Origin: Alligator mississippiensis
Lineage: Eukaryota
Direction of reading: 5' to 3'
DNA length: 64,000 nucleotides
Assembly: GCF_030867095.1 (NCBI RefSeq)
Contig: NC_081830.1
Span: 240,717-304,716 of the forward strand
Positions 4,830 through 57,520 of the stretch are shown in pieces; the first letter of the stretch is position 1; each line of letters opens with the position of its first letter. The notes under the pieces are model-generated. The model worked only from the letters and a program-made list of their open reading frames with translations. It had not been told where the DNA came from and made no database searches. The position numbers and the translations under genes are program-made.

Positions 4830-5110
4830 AATGAGGGAGGGGCGCGGCCTAACACTGTGGGCGGGGCGTGGCGGTGGGAGGGGCAGGACCCTCTCTCCGC
4901 TCGAAGGGAGGGTGTGGCTCAGACTGACCGGGGCGTGGCCTGTGCCCTGGGGGCGTGGCCTAACACTGAGGCGTGGCCTAGCACTGGGGGCGGGGTGGGA
5001 GCCAGGGCCATCTCCCCCTGGGGCGGGGCCTGTGCCCTGGAGCGGCCGTGGCTTAACACTGGGGGCGTGGCCTAGCAGTGGGTCAGCGCGGGAGAGCCGG
5101 GGCCCGCTCT
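4830..5110. repeat. Tandem array of about 58-bp units built on the motif GCGTGGCCTAACACTGRGG (about 5 copies).
   Basis: Repeated gcgtggcctaacactg / gcgtggcctagcactg / ggcttaacactg strings between the FIMP-like ORF and the TLCD3B 3' end. Confidence 0.7.
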
Positions 5111-5147
5111 CCCCGGGCGGGCGGCTCCGCCTGAGCCTGGGGCGGGG

Positions 5148-7599
5148 CTAGTCGGGGTGCGCGCGGGCGGGGCCGGCGCCCGGGCCGGGGGCTGGTGCGG
5201 CGGCGGGGGCGCGGAAGAGGCGCAGGGCCCCGCGGCAGATGAGGCCGAACCAGTAGAGCTGCGGCGCCAGGAGCAGCGCGGCCGCCGCGTTGTAGGCAGG
5301 CGGCAGCGCCAGCGGCACGGCCAGCAGCGGCAGCCCGGCGTGGCGCGCGTAGGCCCAGTACAGGTAGGGGAAGAGCAGCACGCGGCAGCAGAAGAAGGTG
5401 ACCAGCATGGCCGCGCCGTTCAGCTTGTGCAGCAGCGTGTGCTGCCGCTTGTACTGCGGGACACGCGGGTCAGTGCGGGGCCGCGGCGCGCCGCCCCCGC
5501 CCCGGCCTGGCCCGCCCCGCGCCCGGGGGGCACTCACCAGGATCAGCACCTTGCCCAGGCAGACGAAGGGCGTGCTCAGCTCGGCCATCAGCATGCAGCC
5601 CAGGAAGAAGTCGCCTTTGCCCTGGCGCCACAGCTGTGGGACACGGGGGTCAGCGCGGCCCGCATCTCCCGGCCCGGGGCTCCAGGCGTGCGGGCCGTGC
5701 TGCGGGGCGGGTGGGTACTCACGGCGGCCACGGGGAAGCAGACCAGCACCATGCAGAGGTGATGCAGCACCATGAGCAGCTCTTTGCGCAGGAAGGCGCG
5801 GGCGGCCGCCGCCAGCCCCCGGTCCGGCCCCGGCCCCGGCCCCGGCCCCGGGCCGCCGCGCGCCTGCAGCCGGCCCTTGTGCAGGTGGCACAGGAACATG
5901 GCGCCCAGGTCGTACACGAAGTAGGGCACCGCGAACTCGGGGTAGGCGCGGGCCAGCCAGTGTCTGCGGGCACAGCGCGGGCCGGGTCGGGGCGGCGGGG
6001 CCAGCCCGCCCGGGGGTGCTGGGAGCAGCCGGGGGTCACGGATCCCCGCTGCTGCCCCCGCGGTGCCCAGCAACCCCCCTTCCGCGACGCCCCGCCCCCG
6101 CCCCGCAGCCCCGCCCCGGGGCCAGGCCGTGCTGACTAGGCGGCTGCTCTGCGGGACGGGATTAGGCCGCGTGCCAGAGCCGCAGCCGGGACACTGCAGC
6201 AGCGGGGCTGCGGGGCCGAGCGGGGGGGTGGGGTGGGATGCGGGCGCAATTTTCCTACGACGCCCTGGCCCCCCTGTCCGCGGCGGGCGGGGAGGGGGAG
6301 CAGCACTCATTGTTTCCGGGCAGCGGGGGAGGGGCGGCCGGTGCAGGACCCCCCCCACAACGCCCCGCACACAGAGCGGAGCGAGGACCCAGGCGTCCGG
6401 GCAGCGCTGCTCGGCCGGCGCCGGCGAGAGCGGTGGGGATGGGGCTGGGGCCGCCGGGAGCACGGGCCTGCGGGCCCTGTCCGGTGCTGAAAGCAGCGCC
6501 GAGACTCGCCGCAGCACCACGGACAGCGGCAGCGCGGGCGCGGGCTCGGCCGGGCCTGGCTCCGGGGCCGAGGCGCGGGGTTGGGGGTCCCGGGGCCGGG
6601 GGCACTCACTGGTCATCGATGACGTGCTTGCAGGAGCTGGACACGATGTAGCCGGCCGTGGAGGCCATGACGGCCTGGATGGACGAGACCAGCCTGCGGG
6701 GGGGTTAGACGGCGTGTCCCGCACTCCCGACCCGCAGCCCCCGAGCCGGGCCGGGTGTCCCGCAGGCGCTGGGGGACGCCCCCCGGCAGGGCCCGCCCGT
6801 GCCCCTCCCCGGCCCCGCACCTGGCGGCCACGATGACGGCGTCGGGCTCGTCCCAGCGCAGCCCCGGCAGGCGCCGCAGCCCGGCCCGCGCCAGCAGGAA
6901 GAGCCCCGGGAAGAGCAGGCCCCCGGCCGCCAGCGCCCGCGGCATGGCCGCCAGGCCCGCTCAGCGGCGCGGCGGCCCGGGCCGGCGGGGGGCGCCGCGC
7001 ATGGCGGGCTGCGGCCGCTCGCACCCGGCGCCACCGAGCGAGCGGGCCGCGGGCATGGGCGGGGCTGCGGCGTCACGCAGGGGGCGGGGCAAGGGCGTCG
7101 CGGGGGGGCTGCGGGTCGGGAGTGCGGGGCACCGCTCGGGGTGGCGGTGGGGGGCGGGAGCGAGCAGCACCACTGGGGCAGGGGGTATCTGGGGTGTCCC
7201 ACAATGCCCCGGGGAGGTCAAGGTCAGGGGTGCCCCCCCGCCGCCCCAGGGCAGCGTGGGAATCCGCTCACGGCTAATCCCCGCCACACGGTGCCCCCCC
7301 AGCCCGAGTCACCCTGGAGTCACCTCGGGGGGCGCCGCCCCGTGGCTGCCCAGGGTCCTACCCCCGTCCCGCCGCGGACCCAGGTGCCCGGGCTGCCGAA
7401 ATGCCCGGCCGGGCTGAGGAGCCCTGGCCGCCCCCCGCCCCCCGCCCCGCGCCCCGGGCCTGGCGTGCGCTTACTTGGCGGCGAGGTAGGTGGCGTGCAG
7501 CGGGGGCAGGCGCAGCGGCGGGGCGCGCGCCAGGCCCCAGCGCAGCAGCACGAAGAGGCCCGGGAACAGCGCCCCCCCCGCCAGCAGCAGCAGCAGCAT
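5148..7599 (-). CDS. TLCD3B: TLC domain-containing protein 3B (FAM57B). Coding exons 5148-5453, 5538-5633, 5723-5963, 6610-6693, with alternative first coding exons 6821-6945 (MPRALAAGGLLFPGLFLLARAGLRRLPGLRWDEPDAVIVAA) or 7475-7599 (MLLLLLAGGALFPGLFVLLRWGLARAPPLRLPPLHATYLAA).
   Basis: Translation matches human FAM57B: LVSSIQAVMASTAGYIVSSSCKHVIDDQHWLARAY, FAVPYFVYD, QGKGDFFLGCMLMAELSTPFVCLGK, YKRQHTLLHKLNG, LLFPYLYWAY and LLAPQLYWF. All introns are GT-AG. The two first exons are each 125 nt and paralogous. Confidence 0.9.
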
Positions 7600-7899
7600 C
7601 TGCGGGGCAGCGCGTCACCCTCAGGCCGCCGCCCGGCCCGGCCCGGCCCTCACTGCTGGTCCGAGCCCGCCCCGGCGCCCAGCCCCTCCGAGACTCGCAG
7701 TGCCCTCGGCCGGGTGGAGCTCACCCTCCCCGCGCTGCCCCAGCCCAGCCCGGGATCGCCACCCAGCCCCGGGCATCCCGGCCGAGCCGCACCCCCGCAC
7801 CAGCCCCTCCAGCGCCCCACCCCCACACACACCAGCCCTGACCCCTGACCCCGCGACCCCCGGCCCCAAACTGCCCCCGCCCCCTGGCTGCGCGGACAC

Positions 7900-8480
7900 C
7901 ACATGAATATTCATGAGCGCGGACCTCAGGCTGGTGGGCCCTGCCGGGCTGCGATTGGCCGCCAGCCGCCCCCCCGCCCTCTCCGCCTCTCATTTGAATA
8001 CTGGGCTGCAGCCTGCGCCTCATTGGGCGACCCCCGGGCTGCCTGGCATACATTTGCATCTCATTACCATGCTGCAGCACCCCCGGGCCCGCGTCCCGCC
8101 GAGGTGGTGTCGGCCCGCCCGGGCGATGAATACATTTGCATCTCATTACCCGCCAGGCCCAGCCTCCGCCCCTAGCGCCGGGCCTGGGCACGGGCCGGGC
8201 CGCCGGCGGAGTCCTGCATCTCCCGGGGCAGCCGCCTCCGCACGTCTGCACCGCGGTACCTGGCTCATCGGGGGTCCGGGCGGGCCCCTCATCTGCATAC
8301 ATTTGCATGAGGCGACCGGGGCTCGCCCGGAAAGGAGTTAGTGCCTTGTGACCTCGCGGGGCCTCATTTCCATATATTCAAACGACACCCCCAGCGAGGC
8401 GCTTGACACATTCACGACCTCCCCCCCCCCCGCCCCGCGCGAGGAATACATCTGCATCTCATTATCCCGCCCTCCGTGAA
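7900..8480. promoter_or_regulatory. Cluster of 6-7 degenerate copies of a motif of about 21 bp, ATACATTTGCATCTCATTAYC, containing octamer (ATTTGCAT) and PORE/MORE-like cores (ATGAATATTCAT, TCATTTGAATA). It lies in the TLCD3B-MAZ intergenic CpG region.
   Basis: Copies at about 7903, 7988, 8047, 8127, 8289, 8364 and 8445. ATTTGCAT occurs 4 times in 580 bp. Confidence 0.45.
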
Positions 8481-8589
8481 TACTCAGTGAGGCTCCCCCT
8501 TCAGGGGACAGGCCCGAGGCGCGTCGCCATAGCAACAGGCGGGATCCCCAGGGCGCAGCGCTCATGCGCACACAGCCAGGTCCATAGGA

Positions 8590-8870
8590 GGCCCGCTTTC
8601 TACACTGCGCATGCGCCTCTCAGTGCGCCGGGAAGCTTGCGGAGGCAGGCCGGAGCGCATGCGCAGAAAGTGACCGTAGCCAAGGCTCGATAACGGGCGC
8701 GTAAGCTCACAGCGCATGCGGAATGGAAGTAAGCACACCCCCCCCCACCCCCTCCTTTGGGGGAAAGGAGGGAGGGGCGAGAATTGCGCGCTAGCACGCA
8801 GGCGCTGCATCCAGATAACGTTTCCTGCTCCCCTTTCAGACCCTGCCAACACGCATGCGCAGTCGACTCT
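8590..8870. promoter_or_regulatory. Four NRF1-type palindromes (GCGCATGCGC-like) upstream of MAZ.
   Basis: The strings are ctgcgcatgcgcc (about 8605), gagcgcatgcgcag (about 8655), cagcgcatgcgg (about 8712) and cacgcatgcgcag (about 8857). Confidence 0.5.
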
Positions 8871-9498
8871 CGGGTCCTGGCGGGGTCCCCCGCCGCGCAC
8901 GCGCCCCCTGGCCGGCGCCCCTGATTGGCCGGCGGGCGGGCCACGCGCCAAATACAAAGAGGCGCGAGGCAGCGCGGGCGGCTGGGCGAGAGCTAGGCTG
9001 CGGCCGCTGGGGTTGAGCGTAGCGCGGCCAGGGACGACGAGGAGCGACCCTGGCAGCCGGACGCCTGCGGGCGGTCGGGCGCGGGCGGTCGGGCTGAGGG
9101 GCCCGCGGGAGCCCGCAGGGAGCAGGTGGGCCCGCGCCAGGGCGAGAACGTTCCTATGCGACTCCTCTCCACAGCCGGCGTCTCGCCGCTCTTCCCACCA
9201 TGCGTTGCGGCGGCCCGACTAGTGCGCAGGCGCGGGCCCGCCCCTGGGCGCGGGAGGGGGGGGGAAGGAGGCCCGGCGCCATTTTCGTGGCTCGGCGCAT
9301 CGCAGCGCCGCCCTTGCCGCGCACAGCCACCGCCCCTGCAAGGCGGGCCCGGCCTGTACCAAGTCCCGCGGGTGGGGCCGGGCGGGTGGTAGCGCCCAGC
9401 CCTGGCGGCCGGGGCGGCAGTGGGCCGGAGCGCCTCGGCGGCCATTTTGTGAGGGAGGGTGGGGGGGCCGCGACCGTTAGGAGCGGGCGGGGCCGGCG

Positions 9499-9788: not shown

Positions 9789-12700
9789 GTAACGGCGCGG
9801 CCCGGCCCCCCCCGCCCGCCGCGCCCCGGGGGGGCCGCCCCGCCCCCCCCGCCGGGAGCCCCGCGCCCCCCCCGGCCGCGCGCCGCGCCGCCCCGCCCCC
9901 CGCGTCACCGCCGCGTCACCGCCCCCCGCGCCCTCGGTAGGGACCAGGGTTAACGCCCCGCGTGTCGTGTCGTGTCGTGTCTCCCGTGCCGCCCGCAGAG
10001 CCACGCGCAGAACCCGCTGCCCGTGGGCGCCGACCTGCAGTCCCGCTTCTTCGCCGCGCCCGGCTGCGCGCAGAGCCCCTTCCAGGTACGTCCTGCGCCC
10101 GGCCCGGCCCGGCCCGGCCCCGGGGCCTCCTGCCCCCCGCCGGCTCGGGGCCGCCCTGGCCTCCCTCCCGGGCCCGCAGGGTCTGGCAGCTCTTGTGCGC
10201 GGCCGACAGGGGCCGCCCCCGCCCCCGCCTGGCGCCCTGCCGCCGCCGGGCCGCCCCTGCGGGCTGGGCCCTCGAGCCCCTGGAAGCGGGGAGCCCCTGC
10301 CGGCCAGGCCCAAGCCAGGCTGCACATTGCCCCCGCCCGCGCGGCCCCACGTGCCCCAAGGCCGCCAGCCCGCGTGGCGGGAGCAGCCGCGTGCCAAGGG
10401 GGTCCCTGAGATGAGATGCCCCCCTCTGTCATGGGGTGACCCCCCAGAACACAGGGGGCGGGGCCTCCAGCAAGGGGCGGGGCCTGACCGTGTCCCCTCC
10501 CCCACAGGCGGCGGCCGCAGCGCCACCCCCGCCCCCACCCTCGGGGCCACCTGAGGGGCTGCAGGTTGACCTGCTGCCGGTGCTGGCGGCCGCCCAGGAG
10601 TCAGCCGCCGCCGCTGCTGCCGTAGCTGCCGCCGCTGCCGCCGCCGCAGCCCAGACCCCCGCCCCGGCCCCCACCGCCGCCTCCACCGTCGACACCGCCG
10701 CCCTCAAGGCCCCGCCCCCAGCCCCACCCGCCCCGGAGCCGCCCGCCCCGCCTGCCACCGCCCCCAGCCAGGCCCCCCCCTCAGCCGCATCCGCGGCGGC
10801 CATCGCCCAGGCGCCGCCCGTGCCAGCCCCCGCCCCGGCCCCATCCGCCGAGGCGCAGAAGAAGTCGAAGAGCAAGGGCCCCTACATCTGCTCGCTCTGC
10901 GCCAAGGAGTTCAAGAACGGCTACAACCTGCGGCGACACGAGGCCATCCACACAGGCGCCAAGGCGGCCCGGCCTGCGCCCGGCGCCATGAAGATGCCCA
11001 CCATGGTGCCACTGAGCTTGCTGAGCGTGTCAGCACTGGGCGGGGAGGCGGGGCCGGCGGCGGGTGCAGGCGGCACAGGCGGGGGCCTGGTGACCACCAC
11101 AGCCTCGGGCAAGCGCATCCGCAAGAACCACGCCTGCGAGATGTGTGGCAAGGCCTTCCGTGACGTCTATCACCTCAACCGGCACAAGCTGTCGCACTCG
11201 GACGAGAAGCCCTACCAGTGCCCCGTCTGCCAGCAGCGCTTCAAGCGCAAGGACCGCATGAGCTACCACGTGCGCTCGCACGACGGGGCCGTGCACAAGC
11301 CCTACATCTGCAGCCACTGCGGCAAGAGCTTCTCCCGGTACGTGGCGCGGGCCAGGCGGGCCGGGGGGCCACGGGCGGTGCCAGGCCCTGACCCTTTTCT
11401 CTGCCCTCCGCCAGGCCAGACCACCTGAACAGCCACGTGCGCCAGGTGCACTCCACAGAGCGGCCGTTCAAGTGTGAGGTAGGCGCCACGGAGCGAGCGG
11501 GGCAGGGGCCTGGGCATGGGGCAGGGGCCTGGCGTCACCTCCCAGGCTCAGGAAGGACCCAGGTCACTGAGACTGCAGCGGGCTGTGGACCCAGACGTCT
11601 TGGGGAGCGGGAGGTCCTGGAGGCTGTTCCTAGGAGGGGAGAGGACCCAGGCATCCGGGAAGGGGCTCCCCGGGGCCTGCAGTGCAGGAGGAAGGATCCA
11701 GGTTTCGGGGCAGGCAGGTGAGGTGAAGCCCAGCACCGCTCTGACCCTGGTCCCCACGCAGACGTGCGAGGCGGCCTTCGCCACCAAGGACCGGCTGCGG
11801 GCCCACACGGTGCGGCACGAGGAGAAGGTGCCGTGTCACGTGTGTGGCAAGATGCTGAGCGCCGCCTACATCACCGACCACATGAAGGTGCACAGCCAGG
11901 GCCCCCACCACGTCTGCGAGCTCTGCAATAAAGGTGCGATGTGGCCCTGCGCCTGTCTGTGCCCTGCGCCTGCCTTGCGATCCGCGCGTCCCAGGCACCT
12001 GAGATGCAGCCGCCGCCGGGGGGGTTCTGGGGCTACCGTGCAGCCATGGCCGGGGCACAACAAGGGCCAGGATGGGCCTAGCTCTGCTCTGTGGTGCCCA
12101 CAGGCAGTGGGCACTGGGGCAGGGAGGGGGGTGCTGGCCGCCGTCCCAGCTCTGAGATGCAGTCGCACGGGGACGTGGGCCGCCGTAGCGCCAAGGCGCC
12201 ATCGGGCAGGTGCAGGGGCCGGCCAGGAGGCGCCGCCAGCCCAGGGAGCTGCCCGCGTGCTGACGGGCGCTTTTGTTCTCGCCGCAGGCTTCACCACGGC
12301 GGCCTACCTGCGGGTGCACGCGGTCAAGGACCACGGACTGGCGGCCCCGCGGCCCGAGCGCTTCCTGTGCAAGCTCTGCGGCGTGCACTGTAAGACCCCT
12401 GCGCAGCTCAACGGGCACCTGCAGACCCACGCCGAGGGCCCGGCCCCTACCCCTGCCCCCACCGAAGCCCCACCCCTGCGCTGAGGCCCCCCCACAGGCA
12501 AGGCGTCTGGGGACCCGGCCGGGTGCAGGCACAGTGCCCGGGGCTGGGGCTGGCTGCGTCTTGGGAACGGGGTGGTGCGGCTGCATCTCAGACCAGGCAC
12601 TGGACCCAGCTGTCCAAGGGATGGAGGGGTGCGCGGCTGCATCTCAGACCTGGTGGTGGACCCAGGTGTCCAAGGGGGGGTGTGGGGGTGGCTGCATCTC

Positions 12701-15155: not shown

Positions 15156-15929
15156 GTGAGCCATGAGCCTGCCCTGGCCTCATCTGCATGCAGTGTGCCC
15201 TGCACCCCAAGGCGCCTGAGCAGGAGAGTGGGGGGCATGGGCTGCCCTGGGGTGTGCAGCTTGCGGGGTCAGCTGGGGGTCAGGGGATGGACCCCGGCCC
15301 TGGTCTGAGCCGGGTGGGCACAGTCCCGCAGCTCGCTCCAGCAGGGTGACGTGGACGGGGCGCGGCGACTGGGCCGTGTGGCCAAGCTGCTGAGCCTGGT
15401 GGGGCTGGGCGCCGGGGCCCTCATTATCGCCACCGTCATCGCCATGCACCCCGGTGGTAAGTGCAGCTCCCCATCCCTGGCCCCCAAAACTCTGCCCCTC
15501 GACCTCCCAACCTTGCCCCCTGCCTGTGAGCCAAGTCCCCAGGCTCCGAACCCCCGCCCCTGGGCCTCCTAGCCCTGCCTGTGGGTCCTGAAACCCCACC
15601 CCTGGGCATCTAAATCCTGCCTCCTGCATCCTAGCCCCACCTGCGGGCCCCAAAAGCCCACCCCGTGCCTCCTAGCCCCACTTCTGCCCACAGCCCCCAA
15701 AACCTGAACCCCGCCCCCTGGGCCCTGAAACTCCACCCTTGGGTTTCCAAATCCCACCCCTTTTGCCCTATGGCTCTTAGCCCTGCCCTAAACCCCAATT
15801 CCTGCGGCCTTGGCTCCACCCCCAGACCCCACCCCTCCCTGAACCCCACCCCCCGCAGCTGAAGCGGGAGGTGGGGGGGGGGGGTCGTGCTGACCACTCA
15901 CTGCCACCTTCCCCGCAGTGTTCAAGTGA
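14721..15929 (+). CDS. PRRT2: Proline-rich transmembrane protein 2, CDS span; three coding exons.
   Basis: Pro-rich N-terminus, then a C-terminal CD225/dispanin region [67 protein letters not shown]. This matches human [53 protein letters not shown]. Confidence 0.88.
15324..15456 (+). CDS. PRRT2: PRRT2 exon ([44 protein letters not shown]).
   Basis: Acceptor cacag|tcc; donor g|gtaagt. Confidence 0.8.
15919..15929 (+). CDS. PRRT2: PRRT2 terminal micro-exon (..VFK*).
   Basis: Acceptor ccccgcag|tgttcaagtga. Human ends ..GVYK*. Confidence 0.6.
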
Positions 15930-16623
15930 GGATGACGTCACCGCCGCCCCTGCCCCCTCCCTCCATCTTCTTCCCCACTCGCCATGCCCCAGCCATCCCA
16001 CACCATGTGCCCACCCACCCCAGCCCTGCTGCATGCCCCCTCACACCTGTCCCAGCATCCACTCCTCCACACGCTCCCCCCCAACCCTGCAGGCACTGCC
16101 TTGACACCGGCCCTTGCCGCTGGTGCCAGACGGACGGACCCACAGCCTGGGGACACAGGACACGGGCTGAAGGGCCCCTTCTGCAGTTGGACGGTGGACG
16201 CGGCCCGGAACCGGGCAGGGGCAGCCAGGCCCACAGAGCCCTGCCCTTGCGGGCCTTCCCAGCCGGGGACCCGCCTTTGCACGTGTTTGGCGGCCCCGAG
16301 CCGGGGCTGCATGGCCTGCTGCATGGATCTTCCTTTTTGTAACCATGGGGGCGGGGTGGGTTTATAGCGGGGAGGGGAGGGGAGGGGAGGGGGCTGCATG
16401 GGACCTGGCCACACTTTGGGGGCTGGGTGTTCTGCCAGCTCAGAGGGGGCCATGAGGCAGGGCCAGGCTGGCTGGGGTCTTCTGCTACCCAGAAATGGGG
16501 CATTTCAATGCAAAACTAGGAGGGAGTGGGAAAGGGGGAGGCTGAGGGAGATAAACGTGTGGGGGGGGGGGGGGGCCGCACGACATGGCCGCACCTTTTG
16601 TAGCCAACGCATGAAACGAGCCA

Positions 16624-57139: not shown

Positions 57140-57520
57140 TGCCGTCGGGCGCATGCGCAGTGAAAAGCTGCGGACATGGTTATGCGTATGCGTGCTGGTT
57201 CATGGAGCGGGAAGGGGGGAGGAAATTGACAAAGTGCGCATGCGTAGCTCCATCCCAGGAGGGAGGTGATATGCAAGGGCTGTGGCTGCGCAGTGGAAGC
57301 GAGGCGCCGGCGCGTACGTTCTTCAAAGAGCTGTTGCGGCAAAGCAGAGCGCACGCGCTCTGGAAACGGGACGAAGGCTTCTGCGCATGCGCCTCGGGGC
57401 CGCCGGTGCCAGAGGGGCTTCAGGGCTCGCCTTGTCGCGCATGCGCACTGATGAGCCACGGCCGCGCTCTAGTGGCGAGCGCATGCGCAGCCTAGTGATC
57501 CGAGCGGGAACGCATGCGCA
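57140..57520. promoter_or_regulatory. PAGR1: Cluster of six NRF1-type palindromes (GCGCATGCGC/GCGCATGCGT) in the PAGR1 upstream CpG island.
   Basis: Sites at about 57149, 57238, 57384, 57440, 57481 and 57512. All match YGCGCATGCGY. Confidence 0.6.

What the first reader, a model, noticed from the sequence alone, without database searches (positions are those of the whole stretch)
6821..7599. Tandemly duplicated, mutually exclusive first coding exons in TLCD3B
Two 125-nt exons 530 bp apart each start with an ATG. They encode paralogous N-termini: MPRALAAGGLLFPGLFLLARAGLRRLPGLRWDEPDAVIVAA versus MLLLLLAGGALFPGLFVLLRWGLARAPPLRLPPLHATYLAA. Both end in phase 2 with a GT donor (AAR|gtgcgg, AAK|gtaagc) that can join exon 2 (LVSSIQAV...). 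The upstream copy resembles the TLCD3A/FAM57A N-terminus (MLLTLAGGALFFPGLFAL). This implies alternative promoters producing different first TM helices.
Basis: seen in the sequence. Interest (0 to 1): 0.6.

Follow-up and report, generated by a model that had tools for sequence, protein, structure and literature searches.

The report
Alternative first coding exons of TLCD3B
The alligator TLCD3B (FAM57B) gene has two related 125-base start exons that are used one at a time to give two protein N-termini, but both forms are already annotated in this species and shared by mammals, turtles and lizards, so the finding is ordinary.

Summary
The window is Alligator mississippiensis. On the minus strand, two 125-nt ATG-initiated segments (7599..7475 and 6945..6821, 529 bp apart) end in phase 2 with GT donors. 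Either one joins exon 2 (6693..6610) to give an open 283-aa TLCD3B protein. They are homologous far beyond chance: 22/41 aa, where composition-preserving shuffles give a mean of 6 and a maximum of 15.

It is not new. The two predicted proteins match RefSeq isoforms X3 (XP_059586366.1, upstream exon) and X2 (XP_059586365.1, downstream exon) exactly. The same upstream "type A" / downstream "type B" pair, each 125 nt and in the same order, occurs in chimpanzee, squirrel, two turtles and a monitor lizard. Rat and other mammalian proteins also carry type A. The literature already speaks of three Fam57b variants and of a functionally distinct TLCD3B isoform 2.

- Exon A is preceded by a 3' splice site in all four species examined for this (alligator, one turtle, chimpanzee, Varanus). 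It is therefore probably a second exon fed from a promoter further upstream, whereas exon B is a true first exon.
- The resemblance to TLCD3A is family-wide rather than specific. Exon B is closer to TLCD3A (18/41) than exon A is (15/41).

Verdict: real, correctly interpreted, already known, low interest.

The parts
7475..7599 (-). Exon A (type A alternative first coding exon). 125 nt, ATG at 7599-7597, donor GTAAGC at 7474. Encodes MLLLLLAGGALFPGLFVLLRWGLARAPPLRLPPLHATYLAA + AA(G).
   Evidence: Exact N-terminus of RefSeq XP_059586366.1, isoform X3. Orthologous type A exons in other amniotes.
7600..7620 (-). 3' splice-site-like sequence (gcgctgccccgcag) abutting the exon A ATG. It implies an upstream non-coding exon 0. 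In-frame stops lie just upstream.
   Evidence: The same polypyrimidine-AG sits before exon A in Pangshura, chimpanzee and Varanus. Chrysemys has an annotated exon 0 about 7.9 kb upstream of exon A.
6946..7474 (-). 529-bp interval between A and B. It is intron sequence for A transcripts and is inferred to hold the promoter and 5'UTR of exon B. It contains an in-frame 13-codon uORF at 7002..6961.
   Evidence: No acceptor precedes exon B in any species examined; chimpanzee has gccaccATG. The promoter role is inferred, not shown.
6821..6945 (-). Exon B (type B, canonical first exon). 125 nt, ATG at 6945-6943, donor GTGCGG at 6820. Encodes MPRALAAGGLLFPGLFLLARAGLRRLPGLRWDEPDAVIVAA + AG(G).
   Evidence: Exact N-terminus of RefSeq XP_059586365.1, isoform X2. 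Orthologous to the single N-terminus type seen in the listed fish and amphibian proteins and to the canonical mammalian and reptile form. DNA-level match to bird, frog, turtle and Varanus exon 1.
6610..6693 (-). Exon 2, the common acceptor for both first exons (LVSSIQAVMASTAGYIVSSSCKHVIDDQ). The Pfam TLC domain starts here.
5723..5963 (-). Exon 3. Contains a (GGCCGG)n repeat at 5824-5851 that encodes [10 protein letters not shown].
5538..5633 (-). Exon 4.
5148..5453 (-). Exon 5 coding part, with stop TAG at 5150-5148.
7890..8470 (-). Candidate upstream promoter / exon 0 region for exon A transcripts (inferred). It holds three copies of TAATGAGATGCAAATGTAT plus CCAAT boxes. Two of the copies read GGTAATGAG and are possible exon 0 donors.
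   Evidence: 3 matches, 0 expected. A comparable octamer/CCAAT cluster lies upstream of exon A in turtles, where it overlaps the annotated exon 0 donor in Chrysemys. No transcript evidence.

Best explanation
These are the two alternative 5' coding exons of the alligator TLCD3B (FAM57B) gene. They are an old tandem exon duplicate, present in every amniote lineage sampled except the one bird (mammals, squamates, turtles, alligator). Each exon encodes the part of the protein that precedes the TLC domain: the first transmembrane helix (residues 2-25), a short loop, and the first turns of helix 2.

Exon B is a true first exon with its own promoter just upstream. Exon A is reached from a promoter further upstream, most likely through a short non-coding exon 0 spliced to the acceptor that abuts its ATG. 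Its strong GTAAGC donor then joins exon 2 and skips B.

B cannot be spliced in behind A because it has no acceptor. Inclusion of both would also shift the frame (250 nt). The result is two 283-aa isoforms that differ at 20 of their first 42 residues.

Shown here: the sequence anatomy, the homology, conservation across amniotes, identity to the annotated isoforms, and the predicted topology. Inferred: where the promoters lie, that each exon is actually used in alligator tissues, and any functional difference between the isoforms.
For: - Exact exon anatomy and open CDS for both combinations.
- Both products equal RefSeq isoforms X3 and X2 of Alligator mississippiensis. An independent older model equals exon A + exon 2.
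- A vs B homology: z = 11.6, 22/41 aa; DNA 81/123 against 49.5 +/- 5.4.
- Type A N-termini occur in rat (UniRef B1WBX0), chimpanzee, squirrel, bat, mole-rat, three turtles, Pogona and Varanus. Type B occurs in all listed vertebrate groups.
- Genomic order A -> B -> exon 2, with 125-nt exons and GT donors, in Pangshura, Chrysemys, chimpanzee, squirrel and Varanus.
- Type A exons form a clade with 90% bootstrap that includes the alligator exon.
- Purifying selection on exon A in mammals, dN/dS 0.30.
- An acceptor precedes A and none precedes B. An upstream exon 0 is modelled in Chrysemys and Varanus.
- The TLC domain starts at residue 41-42. AF2 gives helix 2-25, loop 26-32, helix 33-62 in both isoforms, with pLDDT above 90.
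- Literature: 'Fam57b consists of three variants' (PMC11211608). TLCD3B isoform 2 is the isoform most expressed in chondrocytes and the 24,25(OH)2D3 effector (PMC7270532).
Against: - No RNA-seq, CAGE or cDNA data for alligator could be examined. The RefSeq X2/X3 records are computational models.
- Exon A is less constrained than B. Between two turtles dN/dS is about 0.9, on only 11 differences. There is no blastn-detectable DNA conservation between alligator and turtle exon A, whereas exons B and 2 align.
- No exon A was found in the crane or frog loci, so it can be lost.
- The position of exon 0 and of promoter P1 in alligator is only inferred from motifs.
- The squirrel model extends exon A upstream without a splice, so use of the acceptor may not be universal.
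Confidence: 0.88

Rival explanations
1. Exon A is a decaying or non-functional duplicate in alligator. Under this reading the X3 isoform is a gene-prediction artefact propagated from homology, and only exon B is really used.
For: Constraint on type A is weaker than on type B (dN/dS 0.30 vs 0 in mammals; 0.89 vs 0.32 in turtles). Exon A is absent from the crane locus. Alligator exon A has drifted to 79% G/A/R/P/L residues. RefSeq X models are computational, and the same gene also carries an implausible read-through isoform X1.
Against: The ORF is intact, with an ATG preceded by in-frame stops, exact retention of 125 nt and phase, and a near-consensus GTAAGC donor (better than exon B's GTGCGG) together with an adjacent acceptor. 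The C-terminal motif LHATYLAAK is identical to that of turtle type A. The exon has been retained in four amniote lineages and is reported in the literature as a functional mammalian isoform.
Confidence: 0.08
2. The similarity of the two segments is a by-product of extreme G+C content (Leu/Ala/Gly/Pro/Arg-rich open frames) rather than homology.
For: The region is 79% G+C. Long open frames are common here; intron 2, for example, is open throughout. Alligator A and B are both about 76-79% G/A/R/P/L, and the A/B identity is about twice that seen in other species (22/42 vs 10-13/42).
Against: Composition-preserving shuffles never approach the observed identity (maximum 15 vs 22 aa; codon-shuffle maximum 72 vs 81 nt). 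A vs B similarity is also significant in low-GC species (z = 4.4-8.5 in Varanus, turtle and chimpanzee). Length, phase and position are identical across species.
Confidence: 0.01
3. The pair is a recent, crocodilian-specific duplication or a recent gene conversion of A by B, rather than an ancient duplicate.
For: Alligator A and B are unusually alike, especially in the first 20 residues (13/20, against 2-6/20 in other species). They lie only 529 bp apart. Alligator A sits on a short basal branch of the type A clade rather than next to turtles.
Against: Alligator A groups with type A exons (90% bootstrap), and its 3' half carries type A signatures (LHATYLAAK, terminal Lys). It is nearly as similar to B exons of other species (17-20/42) as to its own (22/42). 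Among the 10 shared residues of codons 7-18, 4 third positions differ, close to random for G/C-only third positions (sequence). There is therefore no sign of recent conversion, and GC-driven amino-acid drift explains the excess.
Confidence: 0.03

Closest known systems
Mammalian TLCD3B/FAM57B N-terminal isoforms (three Fam57b variants; TLCD3B isoform 2 = FAM57B2)
   Same: Same gene, and the same pair of alternative 125-nt 5' coding exons in the same order. Chimpanzee has A at L002 10936-11060 and B at 15894-16018; squirrel has A at L006 6091-6215 and B at 10554. Both exons join the same exon 2. Rat B1WBX0 and chimpanzee X1 carry type A, and the canonical 274/275-aa proteins carry type B. The literature recognises three variants and an isoform-2-specific function.
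   Different: The alligator exons are only 529 bp apart, against 4.3-4.8 kb in the two mammals. They are much more G+C-rich and resemble each other more (22/42 vs 13/42). Which numbered mammalian isoform corresponds to type A could not be verified, because the primary papers (PMID 23275342, PMC6063485) are not held. My recollection is that mouse variant 2 / isoform 2 carries the MALLF... type A N-terminus.
TLCD3A (FAM57A) exon 1
   Same: It is the paralogous gene, with the same exon 1/exon 2 boundary (..R|LVSS) and the shared MLxxLAxGxxFFPGLF motif.
   Different: It is not specifically related to the upstream copy. Exon A vs human TLCD3A is 15/41 and exon B is 18/41. Mean identity is 0.23 for A vs 3A and 0.42 for B vs 3A, and TLCD3A groups with type B in the tree.
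Homologous alternative first exons / tandem-duplicated mutually exclusive exons (a general class in vertebrate genes)
   Same: The two exons have equal length and phase, detectable homology and a shared downstream acceptor. Double inclusion would shift the frame, and the alternative region encodes a transmembrane segment.
   Different: Exclusivity here most likely comes from promoter choice, since B has no acceptor, rather than from splice-site competition between two internal exons. No statement that these two TLCD3B exons are homologous was found in the held literature.

Membership tests
TLCD3B (FAM57B) orthologue | TLC (TRAM-LAG1-CLN8) domain | tested here: met
   Pfam PF03798, E = 1.7e-31 and 6.7e-32, residues 41/42-256 in both isoforms.
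TLCD3B (FAM57B) orthologue | Closest relatives are named TLCD3B/FAM57B rather than TLCD3A | tested here: met
   100% identity to A. mississippiensis 'ceramide synthase' X2/X3. Identity is 60-76% to vertebrate TLCD3B/FAM57B proteins and 45-52% to TLCD3A proteins.
TLCD3B (FAM57B) orthologue | Conserved five-coding-exon structure with exon boundaries as in other vertebrates | tested here: met
   Exons 2-5 map colinearly in turtle, chimpanzee, Varanus, frog and crane loci. All splice sites are GT-AG.
Amniote TLCD3B type A alternative exon | Lies upstream of type B exon and joins the same exon 2; 125 nt, phase 2 | tested here: met
   Alligator 7599..7475, upstream of 6945..6821. The same layout occurs in five other amniote loci.
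Amniote TLCD3B type A alternative exon | Sequence groups with type A exons (RW[GA]L, ..A[VT][YL][VL]A[AS]K) rather than type B or TLCD3A | tested here: met
   NJ tree has a type A clade with 90% bootstrap that includes alligator. LHATYLAAK is identical to Pangshura. Caveat: only 42 residues, and the N-terminal half of the alligator exon is B-like.
Amniote TLCD3B type A alternative exon | Preceded by a 3' splice site (fed from an upstream exon) | tested here: met
   ctgccccgcag|ATG in alligator, with equivalent acceptors in Pangshura, chimpanzee and Varanus. Actual use in alligator was not tested.
Mutually exclusive homologous exon pair | Significant sequence homology between the two exons | tested here: met
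   z = 11.6 in alligator and 4.4-8.5 in three other species.
Mutually exclusive homologous exon pair | Never included together; each is joined to the common exon in transcripts | not testable with these tools
   No transcript data are available. Indirect support: 125 + 125 nt would shift the frame, exon B lacks an acceptor, and the annotated isoforms X2 and X3 each use one exon.
Alternative-promoter (alternative first exon) gene | Two distinct transcription start regions | not testable with these tools
   Inferred only, from the acceptor before A, none before B, the octamer/CCAAT cluster at 7890-8470, and the exon 0 modelled in Chrysemys.

The most novel reading that the evidence does not exclude
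The most novel reading not excluded has three parts.

(1) The type A / type B pair is a previously undescribed case of homologous exon substitution that arose by tandem duplication in the amniote stem. It is absent from all listed fish and amphibian proteins and from one frog locus, and has been secondarily lost in birds.

(2) In sauropsids, exon A is driven by a conserved promoter built from TAATGARAT/octamer elements. The GGTAATGAG core of those elements also serves as the exon 0 splice donor.

(3) In crocodilians, GC-biased evolution has pushed exon A back towards the type B sequence, partly erasing the isoform difference.
Probability: 0.3. Interest if true: 0.3.

Novelty: already known. 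Interest (0 to 1): 0.12.

Why it matters
It matters little beyond good annotation. TLCD3B is of biomedical interest: it lies in the 16p11.2 interval, is linked to cone-rod dystrophy, and its isoform 2 is proposed as the 24,25-dihydroxyvitamin D3 effector in fracture repair. The N-terminal exon choice is what distinguishes its isoforms. Showing that the alternative N-terminus is a conserved homologous exon present across amniotes, encoding TM1 plus the loop before the TLC domain, gives an evolutionary frame for isoform-specific function. It does not open a new question. For the genome scan, this is a correct reading of a feature that RefSeq already annotates in this species.

Tried and rejected
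- **Primary papers not held.** I tried to read the papers on the Fam57b variants (PMID 23275342 / PMC3576059) and on FAM57B2 (PMC6063485), but they are not in the library. Only secondary statements could be cited.
- **No published statement of homology found.** Literature searches for a prior statement that the two exons are homologous or mutually exclusive found nothing relevant.
- **Short protein query uninformative.** A search with exon A + exon 2 alone (70 aa) returned only four short fragments, so it said nothing about taxonomic breadth.
- **Some loci not retrievable.** Look-ups of the alligator locus annotation and of the gar and Pelodiscus loci failed because those products are not on record.
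- **No DNA conservation around exon A.** blastn of the alligator upstream region against turtle, lizard, chimpanzee, frog and crane loci found no conservation of exon A or of a candidate exon 0. Only exon B and exon 2 aligned.
- **No exon A in frog or crane.** tblastn for a type A exon found nothing in frog (10 kb upstream plus the 11-kb intron 1) or in crane (10 kb upstream). The crane interval is filled by a GC-box/CCAAT tandem repeat.
- **Recent gene conversion rejected.** I considered conversion between A and B, but synonymous positions do not support it and alligator A is almost as similar to foreign B exons as to its own.
- **Specific A-to-TLCD3A relationship rejected**.
- **ALDOA not in the window.** I looked for it as the upstream neighbour, as in crane, and it is absent.
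- **Tool not applicable.** The sigma-70 promoter/terminator scanner was not used because it does not apply to a vertebrate gene.
Full report
**1. What is there**

The window is from Alligator mississippiensis: the assembled protein is 100% identical over its full length to a RefSeq alligator protein. The region around the finding is 79% G+C.

On the minus strand there are two ATG-initiated segments of exactly 125 nt, 7599..7475 ("exon A") and 6945..6821 ("exon B"), separated by 529 bp. Both end after the second base of a codon and are followed by GT (GTAAGC and GTGCGG).

Exon 2 starts at 6693, behind a good acceptor (ctaacccccccgcag). Its first G completes Lys after exon A or Arg after exon B, and the sequence continues LVSSIQAV...

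With the remaining exons (6693..6610, 5963..5723, 5633..5538, 5453..5148, all GT-AG), either first exon gives an open 852-nt CDS encoding 283 aa.

**2. Is the similarity real?**

Yes. The two exons align without gaps.
- Nucleotides: 82/125 identical.
- Amino acids: 22/41 identical.

Because the sequence is extremely G+C-rich, I used composition-preserving controls.
- 20,000 shuffles of exon B's residues gave a mean of 6.0 identities and a maximum of 15.
- The BLOSUM62 z-score is 11.6.
- Codon shuffles gave 49.5 +/- 5.4 identical nucleotides (maximum 72) against the observed 81/123.

**3. What it is**

Both predicted proteins are already in RefSeq for this species.
- Exon A form: "ceramide synthase isoform X3", XP_059586366.1.
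- Exon B form: isoform X2, XP_059586365.1.
- A 70-aa model from an older alligator assembly (P0123, "FAM57B-like") is exactly exon A + exon 2.

Among 120 TLCD3B relatives, two N-terminal types occur.
- Type B (..FPGLFLLSK..LRWEEADAVIVSAR) is present in all listed vertebrate groups.
- Type A (..FFP..F..LRWGL..AVLVASK / ..HATYLAAK) is present in rat (UniRef B1WBX0), chimpanzee, squirrel, bat, mole-rat, three turtles, Pogona, Varanus and alligator.

I fetched the genomic loci and mapped the exons. In Pangshura, Chrysemys, chimpanzee, squirrel and Varanus the order is always A, then B, then exon 2. Wherever the boundaries were read out (alligator, Pangshura, chimpanzee, Varanus), both alternative exons are 125 nt with GT donors. 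The A-to-B distance ranges from 0.53 kb (alligator) through about 1.3-1.6 kb (turtles, Varanus) to about 4.3-4.8 kb (squirrel, chimpanzee).

A neighbour-joining tree of exon 1 peptides puts all type A exons, including the alligator one, in one clade (90% bootstrap). Type B and TLCD3A exon 1 form the other side. A vs B homology is significant within each species (z = 4.4-11.6).

The pair is therefore an old tandem exon duplication, at least as old as the amniote ancestor. The listed fish and amphibian proteins are all type B. No type A exon was detectable in a frog locus or a crane locus. In the crane, a GC-box/CCAAT tandem repeat fills the corresponding interval.

**4. How it most likely works**

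*Protein.* Pfam places the start of the TLC domain at residue 41-42, exactly at the exon 1/exon 2 junction. AlphaFold2 models of both isoforms (mean pLDDT 88, N-terminal blocks above 90) give the same elements: helix 2-25, loop 26-32, helix 33-62. Hydropathy agrees. The alternative exon thus supplies the pre-TLC transmembrane helix, the first loop and the first turns of helix 2.

*Gene architecture.* Exon A is immediately preceded by a polypyrimidine-AG acceptor.
- Alligator: ctgccccgcag|ATG
- Pangshura: ttccttctcctcccag|ATG
- Chimpanzee: ..ttggctgcag just upstream
- Varanus..ctgcttttgcag, with no ATG in the exon

The Chrysemys model starts in a separate exon about 7.9 kb upstream, and the Varanus model begins N-terminal to its ATG-less exon A. 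Exon B is never preceded by an acceptor, and chimpanzee has a Kozak gccaccATG. Exon B is therefore a genuine first exon with its own promoter in the A-B interval. Exon A is fed from a promoter further upstream.

Mutual exclusivity follows from this architecture. Including both exons would also shift the frame.

These promoter statements are inferences. No transcript data could be consulted.

*Candidate upstream promoter.* One lies at about 7890-8470. It has three copies of the 19-mer TAATGAGATGCAAATGTAT (0 expected by chance) plus CCAAT boxes. A comparable octamer/CCAAT cluster lies upstream of exon A in both turtles. In Chrysemys the modelled exon 0 ends ...GAG|GTAATGAGATGCAG, so the element provides the 5' splice site there. 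The alligator copies at 8148 and 8066 also read GGTAATGAG.

**5. Constraint**

| Comparison | Exon A dN/dS | Exon B dN/dS |
|---|---|---|
| Chimpanzee vs squirrel | 0.30 | 0 |
| Two turtles | 0.89 (11 differences) | 0.32 |

Exon A evolves faster than exon B. Alligator exon A has no blastn-level DNA match to turtle, whereas exons B and 2 do. Even so, its ORF, length, phase and donor are retained in every amniote lineage sampled except the one bird.

Alligator exon A is compositionally extreme: 79% G/A/R/P/L, against 38-52% in other type A exons. It is about twice as similar to type B as other type A exons are (22/42 vs 10-13/42).

It is almost as similar to foreign B exons (17-20/42) as to its own. 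Synonymous positions of the shared residues differ about as often as chance allows. GC-driven drift is therefore a better explanation than recent gene conversion.

**6. The TLCD3A remark**

My recalled human TLCD3A sequence proved identical to the database entry.
- Exon A matches its exon 1 at 15/41 positions and exon B at 18/41.
- Group means are 0.23 for A vs 3A and 0.42 for B vs 3A.
- TLCD3A groups with type B in the tree.

It is visible in alligator exon A only because that exon has drifted towards the consensus.

**7. Comparison with what is known, and novelty**

Multiple TLCD3B/FAM57B isoforms are already in the literature.
- "Fam57b consists of three variants" (PMC11211608).
- TLCD3B isoform 2 (FAM57B2) is described as the isoform most expressed in chondrocytes and as the 24,25(OH)2D3-binding lactosylceramide-producing effector (PMC7270532).
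- Six human transcript isoforms are mentioned in PMC8693007.

The primary papers were not available. From memory only: they attribute the variants to alternative first exons and promoters, and variant 2 carries the type A N-terminus.

I found no paper stating explicitly that the two exons are homologous. This is a routine kind of observation, however, and the isoforms themselves are annotated in this very species.

Verdict: a real feature, correctly interpreted, already known. Interest is low.

Noticed in passing
window 8048-8066, 8130-8148, 8446-8464 (minus strand); L001 9383-9584; L007 5827-6152; L005 9460-9590: Three copies of the 19-mer TAATGAGATGCAAATGTAT (TAATGARAT plus the octamer ATGCAAAT) lie 450-870 bp upstream of exon A, with CCAAT boxes nearby; none is expected by chance. 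A comparable octamer/CCAAT cluster sits upstream of exon A in two turtles and upstream of the single exon 1 in crane. In Chrysemys the element's GGTAATGAG is the annotated donor of exon 0. It is a candidate conserved sauropsid promoter / exon 0 for type A transcripts.
   Followed up: partly
window 6616..5720 (minus strand): RefSeq isoform X1 (XP_019354719.2, 431 aa) starts at an out-of-frame ATG at the end of exon 2 and reads straight through the whole of intron 2 into exon 3. The 79% G+C intron happens to be open. This is probably a retained-intron or prediction artefact.
   Followed up: yes
window 5824-5851 (within exon 3): A perfect hexanucleotide repeat, (CCGGCC)4.7 on the plus strand, lies inside coding exon 3. 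It encodes the [10 protein letters not shown] insert in the loop between helices 3 and 4, which is the low-pLDDT segment of the models.
   Followed up: partly
window 7002..6961 (minus strand): A 13-codon upstream ORF (MRGAPRRPGPPRR*) lies in frame with the exon B start codon and ends 16 nt before it. A longer in-frame ATG sits further upstream at about 7056. Either would be a uORF if the exon B transcription start lies upstream of it.
   Followed up: no
window 8560-8904, 38799-39410, 43358-43546, 57149-57519: There are four clusters of the NRF-1-like palindrome GCGCATGCGC (33 matches with at most 1 mismatch, against 5.6 expected). They probably mark housekeeping-type promoters of neighbouring genes. 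The first cluster lies about 1 kb upstream of exon A.
   Followed up: no
window 4931-5121: A 94-bp tandem repeat (2.1 copies, 80% match) begins just 3' of the TLCD3B stop codon (5150-5148), within the presumed 3'UTR.
   Followed up: no
window 28001-30000: An AT-rich island (G+C 0.38) sits in a window that otherwise runs at 0.6-0.79 G+C. It may be an inserted repeat or transposon.
   Followed up: no
L005 9620-10000 (crane); L004 (frog): The crane locus has no type A exon. The interval between the octamer cluster and exon B is filled by a tandem array of GC-box + CCAAT units (CCCCGCCCC..CCATTGG). The frog locus shows only type B. This suggests loss in birds and an amniote origin for exon A.
   Followed up: partly
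window 7475-7599 compared with type A exons of other amniotes: Alligator exon A is 79% G/A/R/P/L residues, against 38-52% in turtle, chimpanzee and Varanus type A exons. It is twice as similar to type B as they are. This looks like GC-biased drift converging on the type B/family consensus rather than recent gene conversion.
   Followed up: partly
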